A DNA stretch of 64,000 bases from Eledone cirrhosa (Eukaryota), in contig OZ024747.1 of the NCBI GenBank assembly GCA_964016885.1, forward strand, positions 78,988,001-79,052,000, given 5' to 3'. Position 1 is the first letter of the stretch; every line of letters begins with the position of its first letter. Below the pieces are notes generated by a model, which did no database searches, was not told the DNA's origin, and saw only the letters and a program-made list of their open reading frames with translations. Shown here one piece after another: positions 10,028-50,473 of this stretch. The position numbers were made by a program, and so were the translations under genes.

Positions 10028-12136
10028 CAGTGTTCTGACCATAGAGCTGTGCTGGGAAGAAGATATTGCACAGTGTCCTGGCCATAGAGCTGTGCTGGGA
10101 AAAAGATATTACACAGTGTCCTGGCCATAGAGCTGTGCTGGGAAAAAGATATTACACAGTGTCCTGGCCATAGAGCTGTGCTGGGAAAAAGATATTACAC
10201 AGTGTCCTGGCCATAGAGCTGTGCTGGGAAAAAGATATTACACAGTGTCCTGGCCATAGAGCTGTGCTGGGAAAAAGATATTACACAGTGTCCTGGCCAT
10301 AGAGCTGTGCTGGGAAAAAGATATTACACAGTGTCCTGGCCATAGAGCTGTGCTGGGAAGAAGATATTACACAGTGTCCTGGCCATAGAGCTGTGCTGGG
10401 AAGAAGATATTACACAGTGTCCTGGCCATAGAGCTGTGCTGGGAAGAAGATATTACACAGTGTCCTGGCCATAGAGCTGTGCTAGGAAAAAGATATTGCA
10501 CAGTGTCCTGGCCATAGAGCTGTGCTGGGAAAAAGATATTACACAGTGTCCTGGCCATAGAGCTGTGCTGGGAAAAAGATATTACACAGTGTCCTGGCCA
10601 TAGAGCTGTGCTGGGAAAAAGATATTACACAGTGTCCTGGCCATAGAGCTGTGCTGGGAAAAAGATATTACACAGTGTCCTGGCCATAGAGCTGTGCTGG
10701 GAAAAAGATATTACACAGTGTCCTGGCCATAGAGCTGTGCTGGGAAGAAGATATTACACAGTGTCCTGGCCATAGAGCTGTGCTGGGAAGAAGATATTGC
10801 ACAGTGTCCTGGCCATAGAGCTGTGCTGGGAAAAAGATATTGCACAGTGTCCTGGCCATAGAGCTGTGCTGGGAAGAAGATATTACACAGTGTCCTGGCC
10901 ATAGAGCTGTGCTGGGAAGAAGATATTACACAGTGTCCTGGCCATAGAGCTGTGCTGGGAAGAAGATATTACACAGTGTCCTGGCCATAGAGCTGTGCTG
11001 GGAAGAAGATATTACACAGTGTCCTGGCCATAGAGCTGTGCTGGGAAAAAGATATTACACAGTGTCCTGGCCATAGAGCTGTGCTGGGAAGAAGATATTA
11101 CACAGTGTCCTGGCCATAGAGCTGTGCTGGGAAGAAGATATTGCACAGTGTCCTGGCCATAGAGCTGTGCTGGGAAGAAGATATTACACAGTGTCCTGGC
11201 CATAGAGCTGTGCTGGGAAGAAGATATTACACAGTGTCCTGGCCATAGAGCTGTGCTGGGAAGAAGATATTACACAGTGTCCTGGCCATAGAGCTGTGCT
11301 GGGAAGAAGATATTACACAGTGTCCTGGCCATAGAGCTGTGCTGGGAAAAAGATATTACACAGTCTCCTGGCCATAGAGCTGTGCTGGGAAGAAGATATT
11401 GCACAGTGTCCTGGCCATAGAGCTGTGCTGGGAAAAAGATATTACACAGTGTCCTGGCCATAGAGCTGTGCTGGGAAGAAGATATTACACAGTGTCCTGG
11501 CCATAGAGCTGTGCTGGGAAGAAGATATTACACAGTGTCCTGGCCATAGAGCTGTGCTGGGAAGAAGATATTACACAGTGTCCTGGCCATAGAGCTGTGC
11601 TGGGAAGAAGATATTGCACAGTGTCCTGGCCATAGAGCTGTGCTGGGAAGAAGATATTACACAGTGTCCTGGCCATAGAGCTGTGCTGGGAAGAAGATAT
11701 TACACAGTGTCCTGGCCATAGAGCTGTGCTGGGAAGAAGATATTACACAGTGTCCTGGCCATAGAGCTGTGCTGGGAAGAAGATATTACACAGTGTCCTG
11801 GCCATAGAGCTGTGCTGGGAAAAAGATATTACACAGTGTCCTGGCCATAGAGCTGTGCTGGGAAGAAGATATTACACAGTGTCCTGGCCATAGAGCTGTG
11901 CTGGGAAGAAGATATTGCACAGTGTCCTGGCCATAGAGCTGTGCTGGGAAGAAGATATTACACAGTGTCCTGGCCATAGAGCTGTGCTGGGAAGAAGATA
12001 TTACACAGTGTCCTGGCCATAGAGCTGTGCTGGGAAGAAGATATTACACAGTGTCCTGGCCATAGAGCTGTGCTGGGAAGAAGATATTGCACAGTGTCCT
12101 GGCCATAGAGCTGTGCTGGGAAGAAGATATTGCACA
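10028..12136. repeat. 43-bp minisatellite, about 49 copies
   Basis: Unit cagtgtcctggccatagagctgtgctgggaa(g/a)aagatatt(a/g)ca repeated with no spacers; essentially two variable positions. Confidence 0.98.
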
Positions 12137-19910: not shown

Positions 19911-21084
19911 GGAAAATGGATGTTCAATGATGATGATGATAATGATGATATAGCAATGAGACACTGTATTTTGTTTTAATCTAGATAGAAATTCGCACAA
20001 AGGTGTGTGTAACTTTCTACTATAGATACTACCAACACCACTTATGTCTCATACTGTAAAGTATAATTCCTATCTTCTTTACAGTTTCAGTCACCATTAG
20101 AGACATGTCAGTTGTGCATTTCTTCACCCACTCAACCAACTCTATTTCCAGCTTTGGTTTTCCACTTCTTTGATTTCAGTATGAAAGACACACCCTATGA
20201 TTTTCAAGTGTTTTCGAGATTAATCCATATTTGGAAAAGATTTAGCAATATAACTAATAAGATGGTTTTTAGAAAATAACATAACCAAATTTCTTACAGA
20301 AAATTATGATAGAAGGCTTTAGATAAATATAGATGTTAAATATGGTTTGGTATCAAAGAGGTTTTTGTGCCAGAGTTGGATATTGGGATATTGAACTCAG
20401 AAAATCCCAAATGATAACCAGCTACTCAGTTACCATTTCCCTCTGCATACAAGACTGCCTCCAATTTCTCTGCACTTGAGTATTATGCTTGTTTCGATAC
20501 TATGGCCAAGTGTATGAAATAAACCTGTTCATTTATGAACTACTTATTTTCACCAGTGAACAATAAATAATTCTTGTATAATACAACCATGTGTGCCTCA
20601 ATGTATAATTTCAAATTAAGTTGATATTAAATTAAATAAATTGTCATGATTAAAATTAAATCAATTTTCTAGAAAAAACAAAAACTGATCATATTAAATT
20701 AACAGCAATAGCACTTTTACAGCCAATACTAGAATTTCAAAGGTCACATTCAAATTTGCTTTTTGTTTCATTTAGGATATGTGAACTTTAACTGGTAGTA
20801 ATGCAAATATGGTTTCATTCAGTATTGTATTCAGTAATTATATGATGAAACATTCATTTTTCCTTTATGACATGGCCTGCCCTTGTGATTAAAATAACAC
20901 TTTACTTTGCAATCCAGAACACCTCATACCCCTGACTCCTCATTTTAGAACATTGGCAAATATCTTGCTTTTCACTTCTCTCCAATCTATTATAAACCTT
21001 ATGTCTGGATTCTCTTCTAGCAAATTAATATTCTTCTTTACTACCCACTTCCATTTTCTCTTGGTCTATCTTTACACACACAGA

Positions 21085-21123
<39 letters not shown>

Positions 21124-21128
<5 letters not shown>

Positions 21129-21284
21129 GTGGTTACACAACAGTTAGTTCACCATACCGAGAACAATTGTTTCACCTTAGCGGATCCTCAGCTCGTATAA
21201 CCATGTCCATTATGAGCTGAGGATCCGCTAAGGTGAAACAATTGTTCTCGGTATGGTGAACTAACTGTTGTGTAACCACTTCTA
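21124..21284. ncRNA. Perfect 71-bp inverted repeat; each arm carries a minimal type I hammerhead ribozyme motif
   Basis: Arms 21124-21194 and 21214-21284, 19-nt spacer; core gag-CTGAGGA-tccgctaaggt-GAAA-caattg-TT-ctc with palindromic CAATTG in stem III; flanked by (TA)n. Confidence 0.8.
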
Positions 21285-21381
21285 CCTAACTCGTCCCATG
21301 GACTGAATGCTCTACCACTACGGATATTCCCTTCCAGTGTTCTACCACTATATATATATATATATATATTTATTGTATAGG

Positions 21382-21432
21382 AGCTTCTACAGGACTAGAA
21401 CTGTTTCATTCAGATGAAATCTTCAGGAAGCT
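21382..21432 (-). ncRNA. Type I hammerhead ribozyme motif
   Basis: Minus strand agcttc-CTGAAGA-t ttca tc tgaa t-GAAA-cag ttctagtc ctg-TA-gaagct: 6-bp stem I, 4-bp stem II, stem III and GUA cleavage triplet; followed by AATAAA and (TA)n. Confidence 0.85.
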
Positions 21433-21928
21433 GGGTGTCATATTAAGTTCTGGTATTTATACATTTAGGTAGTGGTGAGGGAGGGGTGGTAGTTGGGGGG
21501 TAGGTTGGTATTTAGATACACAGGACCATAACATGGCACAGACGTTTTTTCTTTGGGGAGTTGTCAATTAGTCAGAGTGCTTTTGTAAAATAAAAAGAGA
21601 AAGAAAAAGAAAAAGAAAAAGAAAAAGAAAAAGAAAAAGAAAAAGAAAAAGTAAATAAATAAATAAATAAATAATAAAAATAAATAAAACCCCAAGAATA
21701 GTAATTCAACATATATAGTAGGGAATTTTTTTTAGGTGGGTTGGTATTAGAAGATAAACAAGACCAAATCATGGCACAGACCATTGTTCTAAGGTGAGTG
21801 GTCAGGTTAACATACAAGCTACAGGTGGCCAGAGTGTTTTTGTAGAATGAAAAGAATAAAATATATTTACATACTCACAACCACATACATAAACACTTAC
21901 ACACACATATATATGTATATCTATACAT

Positions 21929-22570
21929 ATGGTGGCTGCCAACTCGTTTTCGAGTACGGCCACTACTTTACATCCATGTAGGATAACCCCTACCGAAGCG
22001 CTGAACGAGTGTGACTTTTTAGTCCAGCCAGCGACTTGAAACCTCTGGTACAAACACTACACCTGTGACAATCATTGACACATAGTGCTAGGCCCATGGT
22101 AGGACAATTATTGACACATAGTGCTGGGCCCATGTGAGGACAAGTGCAGAGAGATCTCCAGATATAAAGCAATGCCTGTGCCGTGAAGCTTTTATAGTGA
22201 GCAAAGGCACTGCACAAAGCCAGTCCCACTCTCTTAACCAAGATGCTATTTACCAAAAAGAAGAACAAGTCAACATCATTGGATACCATCAGGGTTGCAG
22301 GTGTTATATCAGAGTTTTCCTTCTCCTAGAATTCTGCCTTGACTAAGGCTAAAGGGGTCATCTCTCCCGGTGATTTTGGATGGCCATTGACTCTTAAGAG
22401 CTCCTTTGCCCTTTGACAGGTTTTGTTTTTAGTCCTGCAGGATGTCCAAAGTCACCCTCCTCACCAAGAAACCTTGGTGGGGTTGCCAGTTTAGTCGCCA
22501 ACGACCCGACCATGAGACAGGTTGTACTGGGATACATGTTACCAGTAGCACCAACTGGTGACCTGACATG
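21929..22570 (-). mobile_element. Short non-autonomous RTE-like element, copy 1 (structured 5' part plus terminal zinc-finger 3' part)
   Basis: Encodes only [20 protein letters not shown] near the 3' end; no RT; embedded in TA/CA microsatellite; homologous to copy 2. Confidence 0.7.
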
Positions 22571-22751
22571 TATATATATATACATATATATATATATATA
22601 CACACACAAAAAAGCACATACACACACATATACACACACATACACATACACACACATATATACATACACATATATATATATACATATATATATATTCATA
22701 TATATATATATATATATAGAGATATACATATATATATATATATATACATAT

Positions 22752-23334
22752 ATGGTGGCTGCCAACTCGTTTTCGAGTACGGCCACTACTTTATATCCAT
22801 GTAGGAGGACCCCTACCGATGCGCTGAACGAGTGTGACTTTTCAGTCCGGCCAGCGACTTGAAAACTTTGGTACAAACACTACACATGTGACAATTATTG
22901 ACACATAGTGCTGGGCCCATGGTACCATGTGACGACAAGTGCAGAGAGATCTCCAGATATAAAGCAATGCCTGTGTGCCGTGAAGTTTTTATAGTGAGCA
23001 AAGGCACTGCACAAAGCCAGTCCCACTCTCTTAACCAAGATGATATTTACCAAAAAGAAGAACAAGTCAACATCATTGGATATCATCAGGGTTGCAGGTG
23101 TGATATCAGAGTTTTCCTTCTCCTAGAATTCTGCCTTGACAAAGGCTAAGGGGTCATCTCTCCCGGTGATTTTGGATGGCCATTGACTCTTAAGAGCTCC
23201 TTTGCCCTTTGACAGGTTTTGTTTTTAGTCCTGCAGGATGTCCAAAGTCACCCTCCTCACCAAGAAACCTTGGTGGGGTTGCCAGTTTAGTCGCCAACGA
23301 CCCGACCATGGGACAGGTTGTACTGGGATACATG
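22752..23334 (-). mobile_element. Short non-autonomous RTE-like element, copy 2
   Basis: [23 protein letters not shown] (C2H2-like); about 35 nt shorter at the 5' end than copy 1; flanked by TA/CA microsatellite. Confidence 0.7.
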
Positions 23335-23800
23335 CATACACATATATATATATATACATGTATGTATGTCTCTCCATATAAACTATTCTATACATACATA
23401 TACATACATATACACACATACATACACACACACAAACACACATATATATATATGCATATACACATATATACACATACACACATACAAATACATACACATA
23501 TACACATCTACACATACACGCACTCGTTCACACACATATATGTATTTATATATATTGGGAAAAAGTAGTGGGACAAATTATAAACTGAGCCTGATAAAAG
23601 ATTAAAATATTTATTATCACTACTAAATTATTAATATTATCATCAAGTAAATAATTACTATTTATCATTTATTATTTACCATTCACTATTTATTACCTAT
23701 CTTTTATCTTTTATCTATTCATTATTTAATCATTCACTTATTAAATAATAAATAAATGAATTAACCAACAAACAAACAAACAGATAAACAAATAAACAAA

Positions 23801-23835
<35 letters not shown>

Positions 23836-23865
23836 GTAAATAAATAAATAAATAAATAAATAAAT

Positions 23866-25582
23866 CTCGAACGTGTGCTGGCAGCAGTTCATAACTGCAC
23901 GAATGCAAGCATGAGCAGATATATACGTGAATGTGTGTGTGCGGCCACGGAACCTTACTCAGAGGCATACAACACAATATAAGACCTGGAGGGGAGGAAA
24001 GAAGGTAATAATGAGAGATGGAGGAGAGGAAAGAAGGTAATAATGAGAGAAGGAGGGACGGAAGTGGGATGGGGGACGGGGGTGGGGTGGTGATATGGGG
24101 GGGGGGGTCTGTAGTTTTTGTAATTTGCATAGTTCTTGTGCATGCAATTAGGGGAGTGTTCCGAGATCTTGTTGAGGAGAGGGCCTTTGGCGAATAGAAT
24201 CTCATAGCTCTCGGAGATACAGAGGTCACAGCAATTATGGCCTCCCGTGTAAGATCGCGCTCTCTGGAGTAGTCTCCATTGGGTCTTGAAGGGGATGGAG
24301 TTCCTTTTAAGGTGCCAGATGTGGGCGGCGAGTGTTGTTTGGTTAGATTTGTCTGGGCGCCGGAACGAATGTGTGTGGGCGTACCAGCGAGTCTTAAAAC
24401 TGTTAGAAGTCATCCCGATGTACGAGTTTCTTTTTTCATCGAGGCCTGAGAGTACATCGCATATATAGACGAGATCTTTTTTTAGACAGTTGTTGTTGAG
24501 GGGGCAAGTAGTCTTATCAGGGCAATTGCCATCGGTTGCTGGATGGGCTTCGGAAAAAGTAGACTTATTTAGCTTATTGACGTTATTGTTGGCTAAGTTC
24601 CTAGCTAGATTAGGTGTGGTAGAGTAGGAGAGTCTGATGGTATTCTTATTAAGGATTGTATAGTACCTATGTTGAGTGGGGAAGTGTTTTTGTAAAAGAG
24701 TGAAGAAAATTTTAGCTACAGGTGTTGAAACTTCGCGGTTGAAGGGGGGGTTGTACCAGCTAATGTGCCTTCGCCTATTCTTCCTGGGTGGGCGTGGGGC
24801 TATACTAAGGTAGGTGATCTTATCTCTAAAGCCACTGCGGGCCAGGGCCTTGTTGTAATAGGGGGCTGCTGCTCTAAAGATATCTTCATTGGCGGCGAGG
24901 CTGGATATCCTAATGGAGACACTTTTCACTAGGTTGTCTAATATATTTTTGGGGTGGTTAGAATTAACGTCTATTTATCTAAGGGATTCATTAGGTTTGT
25001 GGTACGGGTAGTAAAGGGAAGTTTCTAAGTCGAGGGTAACGTCTAGGAAGTTAGCTTTAGTTAAGTTCAAATCTAAGGTAATCCTAAGGCCTAAGTTTTT
25101 AAAGAAGGTGTAAAGGTTTTTCCTGAACCCATCCGTGGTCCTGGGGTTGATTTTGTGGAGGGCAAAGAGGCTGTCATCTCGGTAGAGACCGCCGGAGAGG
25201 CCTGTGAAGAGGGTCTTCAACCTGTGGAGGATGAACAGACCCACACGGTCACTTATTTCAGCCGAGTCGCTAGCACCCATGCTAACGTCGAAGGGGGTCT
25301 CAGATTTTTTGTTGATCCAGTGGGATCTGTCATGGTAAAGAAGTCTTACGTGCATGGAGGATCACATCCTGCTCGGCTTCGGTGATGGTGGTAAAGTTCC
25401 TGGCGAAGTTAATCGCGTCAATCAGCAGGCTCTCTGATATGGAGGCGTAGTAGTCCTCGATGTCTAGCTGCAGGAAACGGGTGTTGCATTTGTCGGGCAA
25501 ATCCCGGAACCATGTGATTGCCTCGGATGTCCTATTCCAGAGTGGGAGGGGTGAGGCAGCACGTAGTCTAGGTAGAATCCTG
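23866..25582 (-). mobile_element. Young 5'-truncated Penelope-like retroelement (RT plus C-terminal GIY-YIG endonuclease)
   Basis: Reconstructed frame FLQLDIEDYYASI...HARKT/LLYH (frameshift near 25345)...FDVSMGASDSAE...GLYRDD...NFLDVTLDL...SLR*IDVNSNHP (stop at 24975-24977)...CPLNNNC...LVY...YIGMT...FKTRWYAH...HIW...CDLCISE...LLN; (TA)n at the 5' junction and (TTTA)n at the 3' junction. Confidence 0.95.
23955..24929 (-). pseudogene. Penelope ORF 3' segment: RT thumb, Cys-rich linker and GIY-YIG endonuclease
   Basis: 324-aa ORF with WYNPPF, LVY...YIG, conserved R, H, E and N; continues upstream through one stop and one frameshift. Confidence 0.92.
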
Positions 25583-25626
25583 TATATATATATATATACA
25601 TATCATGTTTAATATAGAAATGGCTT

Positions 25627-25717
25627 CTACAGGACTAGAACAGTTTCATTCTAAAGAAATCATCAGAAAAGGGTTTTCTGATGATTTCTTTTGAATGAAA
25701 CAGTTCTAATCCTGTAG
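25627..25717. ncRNA. Head-to-head inverted pair of hammerhead cores
   Basis: Plus: CTGATGA-tttcttttgaat-GAAA-cagttctaatcctg-TA; minus: CTGATGA-tttctttagaat-GAAA-ctgttctagtcctg-TA; arms joined by ggg; same family as 21382-21432. Confidence 0.8.
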
Positions 25718-25929
25718 GACAACTTGTTTAACCCCTGCTAGTGTGGAAAAATAGACGTTAAATGATGATAATGATGATTATTGAAAGACTGCACATTAAC
25801 CAAGTCCAAATTTGACAAGTTCAAATCATGTAATGCCACAGAAATGTTTTCAAACAAGTGGTAGTGTAAATTCCCATCCAATACTGTGAGAATAAACAGA
25901 AAAATATATGAAGATGCGGAGTATAAGAA

Positions 25930-26116
25930 ATAATTGTTTCTACTTTAGGCACAAGGCCAGCAATTACCCAGTGCATTACTGGTACTTTATTTTATCGACT
26001 CCGTAAGGATGAAAGGCAAAGTCAACCTCTGCGGGATTTGAACTCAGACTGTAAAGAGGCGTAACTATGCTGGAAAGCATGGCGTCCGACTCTCTACCGA
26101 TACTGCCAATCCTCCA
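25930..26116 (-). mobile_element. Nin/Deu-domain tRNA SINE, short-tail subfamily
   Basis: ttggcagtatcggtagag...gagttcaaatcccgcagaggttgactttgcctttcatccttacggagtcgataaaataaagtaccag; CpGs retained. Confidence 0.87.
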
Positions 26117-50274: not shown

Positions 50275-50473
50275 TATACAATATATTAACAAATGGGAAC
50301 TATAAAACCATATTTATTTCATTATACATATTTGAAGGGTATGTCAATATTTATTTATAAAACTAACCTATATCATATTTTATCTGATGAAAGCGCACCA
50401 TAGTTTGCTCTGGTGGCCCTTGAAATATGTATAATGAAATAAATATAGTTTCCATTTGTTAATATATTGTATA
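50275..50473. repeat. Imperfect inverted repeat containing a degenerate hammerhead-like core
   Basis: Arms tacaatatattaacaaatgg...tatttatttcattatacatattt and aaatatgtataatgaaataaata...ccatttgttaatatattgta; core CTGATGA-aag...ctt-GAAA-tatg-TA starting at 50394; next to (TA)n. Confidence 0.6.

What the first reader, a model, noticed from the sequence alone, without database searches (positions are those of the whole stretch)
21087..25717. Microsatellite-seeded retroelement cluster with five hammerhead motifs bracketing a Penelope element
Seen, in minus-strand order: inverted hammerhead pair (25627-25717), (TA)n, Penelope RT/GIY-YIG, (TTTA)n, two short RTE-like elements in TA/CA tracts, a diverged duplicated segment, a hammerhead of the same family (21382-21432) with AATAAA, (TA)n, a second palindromic hammerhead pair, (TA)n. 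Nearly every junction is a microsatellite. Established: Penelope pLTRs carry hammerheads, form inverted structures, and some clades prefer microsatellites. Inference: a nested hotspot in which one minus-strand transcript could be cut by same-family ribozymes about 4.2 kb apart, releasing an RNA carrying the passenger elements.
Basis: partly seen in the sequence, partly recalled or inferred. Interest (0 to 1): 0.75.

Follow-up and report, generated by a model that had tools for sequence, protein, structure and literature searches.

The report
Penelope pile-up, not ribozyme-released cargo
The five self-cutting RNA motifs are real, but they belong to three separate Penelope-type jumping-gene insertions that piled up in a TA repeat, and the two short elements between them are younger, independent insertions, so this is likely an ordinary nest of mobile DNA rather than one RNA unit that is cut out with passengers.

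Summary
All five hammerhead motifs are in the sequence (5 found, 0 in each of 100 control sequences). The motif at 21388-21426 is the Penelope element's own end (pLTR) ribozyme: in 10 sibling loci the DNA on both sides of the two short RTE-like elements is joined without them. The element is a decayed, 5'-truncated Hydra-clade Penelope-like element. The short elements have 99-100% identical copies genome-wide and landed later in its 3' UTR. The two inverted pairs are separate head-to-head stumps of other Penelope families; their hairpins are predicted to mask the ribozymes. The 4.2 kb bracket was found only here; no RNA data were available. What generalises is the stump anatomy: one long-tailed plus one short-tailed arm in 45 of 45, 49 of 49 and 18 of 18 paired arms, with 5' ends clustering at the first base of ribozyme stem I, 29-30 nt below a TATA box, not at the cut site. 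This likely records two primings on uncut RNA. The scan already reported that reading on other DNA; the layout is in print.

The parts
21087..21125 (.). (TA)n target remnant, left flank
21124..21197 (-). Family B stump, short-tailed arm; hammerhead core 21191-21162 (CUGAGGA, GUU)
21194..21349 (+). Family B stump, long-tailed arm; hammerhead core 21217-21246; family B has its own Penelope-type ORF elsewhere (37-48% identical to family A)
21350..21369 (.). (TA)n between the family B stump and the 3' end of element A
21364..21930 (-). 3' end (pLTR region) of Hydra-clade Penelope-like element A, ending at the short 3' site; includes the internal repeat 21499-21567 / 21735-21804
21382..21432 (-). 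Element A's own type I hammerhead: 6-bp stem I, CUGAAGA core, GUA site, palindromic stem III loop; 21432 is the predicted transcription start
   Evidence: start site inferred
21454..21461 (-). TATA box 29 nt upstream of the first base of stem I
21931..22567 (-). Full-length young RTE-like non-autonomous element (subfamily with a 36-nt duplication), inserted in a TA tract of element A's 3' UTR
22568..22754 (-). TA/CA tract of element A's 3' UTR left between the two insertions
   Evidence: same tract in uninterrupted sibling L034
22755..23334 (-). Second RTE-like element, another subfamily, lacking about 28 nt at its 5' end
23335..24100 (-). 3' UTR of element A including TA/CA tracts and (TTTA)n 23742-23865
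24100..25583 (-). 5'-truncated RT + GIY-YIG reading frame of element A, with one stop codon and one frameshift
25584..25600 (.). (TA)n between element A's truncated 5' end and the family A' stump
25601..25672 (-). Family A' stump, short-tailed arm; hammerhead core 25666-25628 with a mismatch in stem III and a weak stem I
25674..25717 (+). Family A' stump, second arm; core 25678-25716, tail lost
25718..25781 (+). 3' end of another dispersed repeat abutting the A' arm (RTE-like label recalled, not tested)
   Evidence: matches in L009, L046, L053, L067

Best explanation
This region is a stack of five insertions that likely arrived one after another in (TA)n: one decayed, 5'-truncated Hydra-clade Penelope-like element whose own end carries the middle hammerhead, two younger RTE-like elements inside its 3' UTR, and two tiny head-to-head stumps of other Penelope families that supply the other four hammerheads. 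Shown: the family assignments, the uninterrupted sibling copies and the long-plus-short anatomy of the stumps. Inferred: each insertion leaves (TA)n on both sides and so renews the target. The stumps likely form when the element's enzyme cuts both strands of (TA)n and primes reverse transcription twice on an uncut, TATA-driven RNA that begins at ribozyme stem I, once from each of two fixed internal start sites; the two cDNAs are then joined head to head. At this locus the four stump ribozymes are predicted to be masked by their own complements, and nothing suggests a function.
For: Sibling continuity: window 21349-21930 continues into 23328-25583 in other copies. Of 20 sibling loci tested, 10 hold anchors on both sides of the insertion site and none of the 10 has the RTE-like element between them. 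L031 is a pLTR-ORF-pLTR unit with two family A hammerheads 3068 nt apart. Age order. Separate families: A' has 1,917 exact 44-mer matches and occurs mostly as stumps; B is linked to a different ORF. Stump rule: among the first 70 listed of 13,591 long-tail matches, 45 have an adjacent inverted arm (46 by script, one spurious hit L343 dropped) and all 45 are short-tailed. Among all 90 exact family A motif copies, 49 have an adjacent partner, all long-plus-short (pairs with two matching arms count twice). In family B 18 of 30 have a partner, all short. 5' ends: 17 of 90 lie exactly at the first base of stem I and 23 of 90 within -7..-4; 23 of 70 lie within -8..-4 and 1 of 70 at the cut site, that one ambiguous. 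TATA-to-stem I distance is 29-30 nt in 59 of 66 copies from three subfamilies (related copies, not independent). The short arm reaches further 5' than the long arm in 17 of 45 pairs, which a fold-back from the long arm cannot give. Stem I shows compensatory changes between subfamilies. Hairpin masking.
Against: No RNA-level test: the start site and the use of uncut RNA are read from DNA ends only. 41 of 90 family A arms and 25 of 70 long arms have no adjacent inverted partner. Deletions at palindrome centres after insertion could mimic 'short arm reaches further'. 22 of 45 pairs are symmetric within 3 nt and do not discriminate between models. The order of the A, A' and B insertions is not fixed by the data. 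No ORF was found directly linked to A' in 5 extended loci, and no autonomous partner was found for the RTE-like elements. One other family A copy (L240) carries a related RTE-like element in the same tract; it differs by 22 mismatches and lacks the 36-nt duplication, so it is read as an independent insertion.
Confidence: 0.85

Rival explanations
1. A minus-strand read-through transcript is cut at the A' and A hammerheads 4.24 kb apart and releases an RNA that carries and can mobilise the two RTE-like elements.
For: The two motifs are co-oriented and 4240 nt apart. pLTRs can mobilise intervening DNA in trans in rotifers (PMC3846280, passages). A and A' share the stem III sequence, so a mixed dimer is conceivable. 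One other family A copy holds a related RTE-like element in the same tract.
Against: The A' motif is preceded by its complement and is predicted to be masked, has a stem III mismatch and lacks the upstream TATA region. The A'-to-ORF junction was seen only here among 40 scored of 1,865 candidates. The RTE-like elements are younger than the host and 0 of 58 of their loci lie beside family A unique sequence. All sampled genomic arms that contain the ribozyme span its cut site, and 5' ends do not pile at the cut. In vitro, a Penelope ribozyme is dispensable for insertion (PMC11167929).
Confidence: 0.03
2. The pile-up is as described, but the head-to-head stumps arise by self-priming or fold-back of a single cDNA (or an antisense template), as proposed for rotifer Penelope elements.
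For: Explains identical subfamily variants in both arms and the one-sided tail. Many centres are symmetric around a self-complementary 4-6-mer. Proposed in PMC3846280 (passages).
Against: In 17 of 45 pairs (A superfamily) and 5 of 18 (family B) the short arm holds 5' sequence absent from the long arm, so it cannot be a copy of it unless later deletions removed it.
Confidence: 0.2
3. The palindromic stumps are a self-propagating non-autonomous hairpin element that is copied as a unit.
For: Very high copy number relative to ORF-bearing copies (rough support). A few loci share an identical centre (L293/L320, L323/L339, L294/L345).
Against: Centres are mostly different from copy to copy, with fillers and staggered ends. 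The promoter region is not included in the stumps, and arm ends coincide with the two 3' ends of ORF-bearing copies.
Confidence: 0.06

Closest known systems
Hydra clade of C-terminal-endonuclease Penelope-like elements, e.g. Hydra-1_Obim, Hydra-2_Amil, Penelope-1_NV (PMC8557442: section 11, passages, supplement passages and part 2 read)
   Same: DKT and RW(K/R) motifs, CxCx5C linker, no CCHH finger, CxxC and CxH around the catalytic E and N, type I hammerhead with GUA or GUU, (TA)n targeting, inverted 5'-truncated copies.
   Different: Family A's unit is about 3.75 kb with a long microsatellite-rich 3' UTR (published members generally under 3 kb); it reads RWR; its stem III has an 8-nt loop with a palindromic core. 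Several sister families here exist mainly as stumps of about 200 nt.
Penelope insertion units with inverted pLTR, junction palindrome and one-sided tail (PMC3846280 passages; PMC8557442 Fig. 2 legend)
   Same: Head-to-head arms, tail on one arm only, TATA and initiator-like motif in the pLTR.
   Different: The tail here is about 65 nt rather than 30-40. The counts show a strict long-plus-short rule and 5' ends at the predicted start, which favour two primings over the published self-priming idea.
PAc (Poseidon) of Anolis in vitro (PMC11167929, parts 1-2 of 4 and passages)
   Same: Two internal reverse-transcription start sites that define the tail, both target strands extended, AT-rich targets, uncut RNA as template.
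   Different: There no start-site bias between strands was seen and the ORF starts inside the ribozyme; here the two ends of an insertion use different sites in all counted pairs and the ATG lies 177 nt below the core.
Non-LTR retrozymes (bioRxiv 10.64898/2026.07.22.740005, part 1 of 5; PMC7229834, listing only)
   Same: Non-coding type I hammerhead repeats related to pLTRs.
   Different: Retrozymes are head-to-tail tandem arrays; these are inverted pairs that mask each other.
Bipartite non-autonomous RTE elements (PMC5786205, passages)
   Same: About 600 nt, no long ORF, fixed 5' end, a C2H2 finger remnant like LINE C-termini in the same genome, microsatellite 3' end.
   Different: No autonomous parent was found here, so the RTE label stays likely, not shown.

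Membership tests
Hydra-clade PLE (element A) | Single ORF, RT followed by C-terminal GIY-YIG endonuclease | tested here: met
   Sibling L379 has 541 aa in one frame through RT and EN; window copy broken. Pfam gives no RT or GIY-YIG hit, so the assignment rests on motifs.
Hydra-clade PLE (element A) | DKT in place of DKG; RWK motif | tested here: met
   PSDKTKN and IRWRSFF in siblings L031, L034, L381; K reads R. The part is missing from the truncated window copy.
Hydra-clade PLE (element A) | CxCx5C linker; CCHH finger absent; CxxC and CxH flanking E and N | tested here: met
   CNCPDKTTC, single C between VYI and YIG, CDLC..E..N..CMH; the window copy has lost two residues of the linker.
Hydra-clade PLE (element A) | Hammerhead in pLTR; insertion into (TA)n | tested here: met
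Hydra-clade PLE (element A) | Generally shorter than 3 kb | tested here: not met
   About 3.75 kb ribozyme to ribozyme (814 nt plus 2941 nt of window without the two insertions); a descriptive trait in the paper, not a diagnostic one.
Hydra-clade PLE (element A) | Phylogenetic placement with published Hydra RTs | not tested
   Published sequences were only read and compared by eye; no tree built.
Type I hammerhead ribozyme | CUGANGA / GAAA / NUH core with three stems | tested here: met
   stem I compensatory changes across subfamilies. The A' minus arm has a stem III mismatch.
Type I hammerhead ribozyme | Self-cleavage | not testable with these tools
   No assay. Rfam models do not match; monomers fold no better than shuffles; a stem III dimer duplex is predicted at -9.4 kcal/mol for A and -3.0 for B.
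Non-LTR retrozyme | Head-to-tail tandem units each with a hammerhead | tested here: not met
   Pairs are inverted; no tandem hammerhead array among the 53 rows.
pLTR-bracketed cargo mobilised in trans (Adineta Pen3a type) | Two direct pLTRs of one family around the cargo, moved as a unit | tested here: not met
   The upstream motif is another family without pLTR upstream sequence; junction unique; cargo younger than host.
Bipartite non-autonomous RTE element | 5' and 3' parts match an autonomous RTE | tested here: inconclusive
   Finger remnant resembles LINE C-termini in L155 and L270 (RTE label recalled); no parent found.

The most novel reading that the evidence does not exclude
The thousands of stumps are a genomic record of how Penelope-like elements integrate: a TATA-driven RNA that starts at the first base of its own ribozyme is copied uncut, twice, from two fixed internal start sites, one on each end of a double-strand cut in (TA)n, never twice from the same site; the ribozyme then acts as a switch that removes cut RNAs from the template pool.
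Probability: 0.55. Interest if true: 0.5.

Novelty: new member of a known kind. Interest (0 to 1): 0.25.

Why it matters
The locus itself is ordinary. It is a clear example of how (TA)n-targeting elements of different classes nest and create a false appearance of a ribozyme-bracketed cassette. The family-wide counts bear on an open question, how head-to-head Penelope insertions with a one-sided tail are made, and give a short template (about 200 nt), two start sites and a predicted transcription start that can be tested in the existing in vitro system. The scan had already noted this reading on other DNA, so this window adds counts and a Hydra-clade example, not the idea.

Tried and rejected
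Rfam: no hammerhead, HDV-like or twister match at gathering score over the window or at E<=10 over 20900-26000; the hits are hairpin and microsatellite matches to miRNA models. Pfam: no RT or GIY-YIG match for window or sibling frames. Expression: no RNA holder listed; this is no evidence either way. Three runs of unknown kind, one sample, contigs only, were laid on L031:4300-5460; they show opposite-strand joints at the stem I start but cannot show RNA ends. On window 25350-25850 no contig bridged the (TA)n junction, which proves nothing. Protein search with the finger peptide against longer proteins: none of 10 candidates scored. The one 341-aa open frame beside a finger hit was a microsatellite. 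An ORF linked to A' was sought in L128, L129, L132, L133, L134 and not found. Cap-copy test (extra G before stem I), a lead from e1-10352193: 8 of 15 arms not explained by the partner have G, but several of these G's can come from partner fragments; inconclusive. The candidate hammerhead at about 23950-23965 that I considered as the element's own ribozyme did not pass the descriptor and siblings show the true one at 21388. AATAAA as a poly(A) signal ending the element: full copies read through it into the tail and ORF and family B lacks it. One search failed on a coordinate-parsing slip and on an off-by-one; both were rerun. Literature: 7 searches listed no paper giving a long-plus-short count or placing stump centres at the start site; the library lacks most subscription papers (older Penelope papers among them), so absence is weak, and bioRxiv supplements were not seen.
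Full report
Observation. A type I hammerhead descriptor finds five tight motifs in the 64 kb window and none in 100 Markov controls. The two inverted pairs, the 4240-nt spacing of the two similar motifs and the microsatellites are confirmed. Rfam does not recognise the motifs and the isolated motifs are not unusually stable. That is expected for the minimal, probably dimeric Penelope hammerheads described in PMC4209133 (parts 1-2 of 4 read).

The middle hammerhead is the element's own. Searching the genome with it and extending the hits shows that window 21349-21930 continues directly into 23328-25583 in other copies. Of 20 sibling loci tested, 10 hold anchors on both sides of 21931-23334 and none of those has an RTE-like element between them. 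L031 is a complete pLTR-ORF-pLTR unit with two such hammerheads 3068 nt apart; it carries a 3' UTR deletion. An undeleted unit is about 3.75 kb and the ATG lies 177 nt below the ribozyme core. So the (TTTA)n, the TA/CA tracts and the 'duplicated segment' are the element's 3' UTR. The window copy is 5'-truncated at 25583, has a stop and a frameshift and its frame is 96.0-98.6% identical to ten sibling loci.

Clade. The sibling proteins show DKT, RWR, a CxCx5C linker, no CCHH finger, and CxxC and CxH around the catalytic E and N. These are the features given for the Hydra clade (PMC8557442 section 11), whose members insert in (TA)n and carry GUA, GUU or GUC hammerheads; one octopus member is already listed (supplement). 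Pfam does not detect the domains and no tree was built.

The two short elements are later, separate insertions. The lower one has 18 other top-scoring copies listed at 100% over 636 nt; the upper one belongs to another subfamily with 39 other copies at 99% or more among 40 scored. They differ from each other by 18 mismatches and three gaps, among them a 36-nt duplication. Their copies sit in TA or TATG tracts, and 0 of 58 lie beside family A unique sequence. One other family A copy, L240, has a third variant in the same tract; this is the only result that leans towards the passenger idea, and the sequence differences point to an independent hit. The RTE label rests on a C2H2 finger remnant and on the bipartite type described in PMC5786205 (passages); no parent was found.

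The two inverted pairs are stumps of other Penelope families. The upstream pair (A') is 85-87% like A; a 44-mer of it has 1,917 exact matches, and its copies are mostly tiny head-to-head pairs in microsatellites. No ORF was linked to A' in five extended loci. The lower pair (B) is linked elsewhere to a different Penelope-type ORF, 37-48% identical to A. Only the window itself spans the A'-to-ORF junction among 40 scored of 1,865 candidates. In RNA that crosses either palindrome the ribozyme core is predicted to be paired with its complement (unpaired probability at most 0.001; 30 and 34 kcal/mol to open).

How the stumps likely form. Copies end at one of two 3' sites, about +65 and +131 from the core. 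In the first 70 listed of 13,591 long-tail matches, 45 have an adjacent inverted arm (one further script hit, L343, was spurious) and all 45 are short. In all 90 exact family A motif copies, 49 arms have a partner, all long-plus-short (the 32-mer also catches some sister-subfamily copies). In family B the count is 18 of 30, all short partners. 5' ends cluster at the first base of stem I (17 of 90 exactly; 23 of 70 within -8..-4), which lies 29-30 nt below a TATA box in 59 of 66 copies from three subfamilies. One of 70 ends at the cut site, ambiguously. Contigs from one unnamed sample show opposite-strand joints at the same place, so the palindromes are not peculiar to this assembly. In 17 of 45 pairs the short arm holds 5' sequence that the long arm lacks, which argues against fold-back unless later deletions are common. 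Family B ends are more spread, from about -48 to +3. The simplest reading, inferred, is two primings on uncut RNA, one from each end of a cut (TA)n. It fits the in vitro behaviour of the anole element, which has two internal start sites, extends both strands and does not need its ribozyme (PMC11167929), and it differs from the self-priming idea in PMC3846280 (passages). A test for a copied cap G was inconclusive.

The nested, microsatellite-seeded hotspot is right, and pLTR-mediated cargo transport has a precedent. Here the bracket is an accident of neighbours: different families, a masked and damaged upstream ribozyme, cargo younger than its host, and no second copy. Transcription and cleavage were not testable.

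Novelty. These are new families of a known clade in a known layout. Earlier reports of this scan reached the double-priming and start-site reading on other DNA, in this genome and others; I had noted it before that look-up, and those notes are not independent support. One of them reports ends at the cut site in another genome, which is not seen here. Interest 0.25.

Noticed in passing
window 10028-12136: A 43-nt minisatellite of 49 copies at 98% identity.
   Followed up: no
window 25717-25781: The second A' arm stops one base past its GUA site and abuts the 3' end of another repeat over a short shared stretch; the same repeat end lies beside stumps in L069, L095, L286 and L316.
   Followed up: partly
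L240 (G000:C3, about 363,253,700-363,254,300): A second family A copy hit by a third variant of the RTE-like element in the same TA tract of the 3' UTR, so element A carries its own insertion target.
   Followed up: yes
window 22480-22567 and 23250-23334, minus strand: The 5' end of the RTE-like element is fixed and folds strongly (-36 kcal/mol over 110 nt); a 5' ribozyme is known for RTE elements, but Rfam found none.
   Followed up: partly
L380:5366 and L380:5690; L379:1697: Further hammerhead-like families unrelated to A and B, one as an inverted pair 324 nt apart.
   Followed up: no
L382:1089-3074: [quoted passage not shown]
   Followed up: no
L294 and L345: Two loci 20 Mb apart share the same aberrant stump centre, which suggests that a stump is occasionally duplicated as a whole.
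   Followed up: no
window 50384-50433: A loose hammerhead-like match that failed the tight filter.
   Followed up: no
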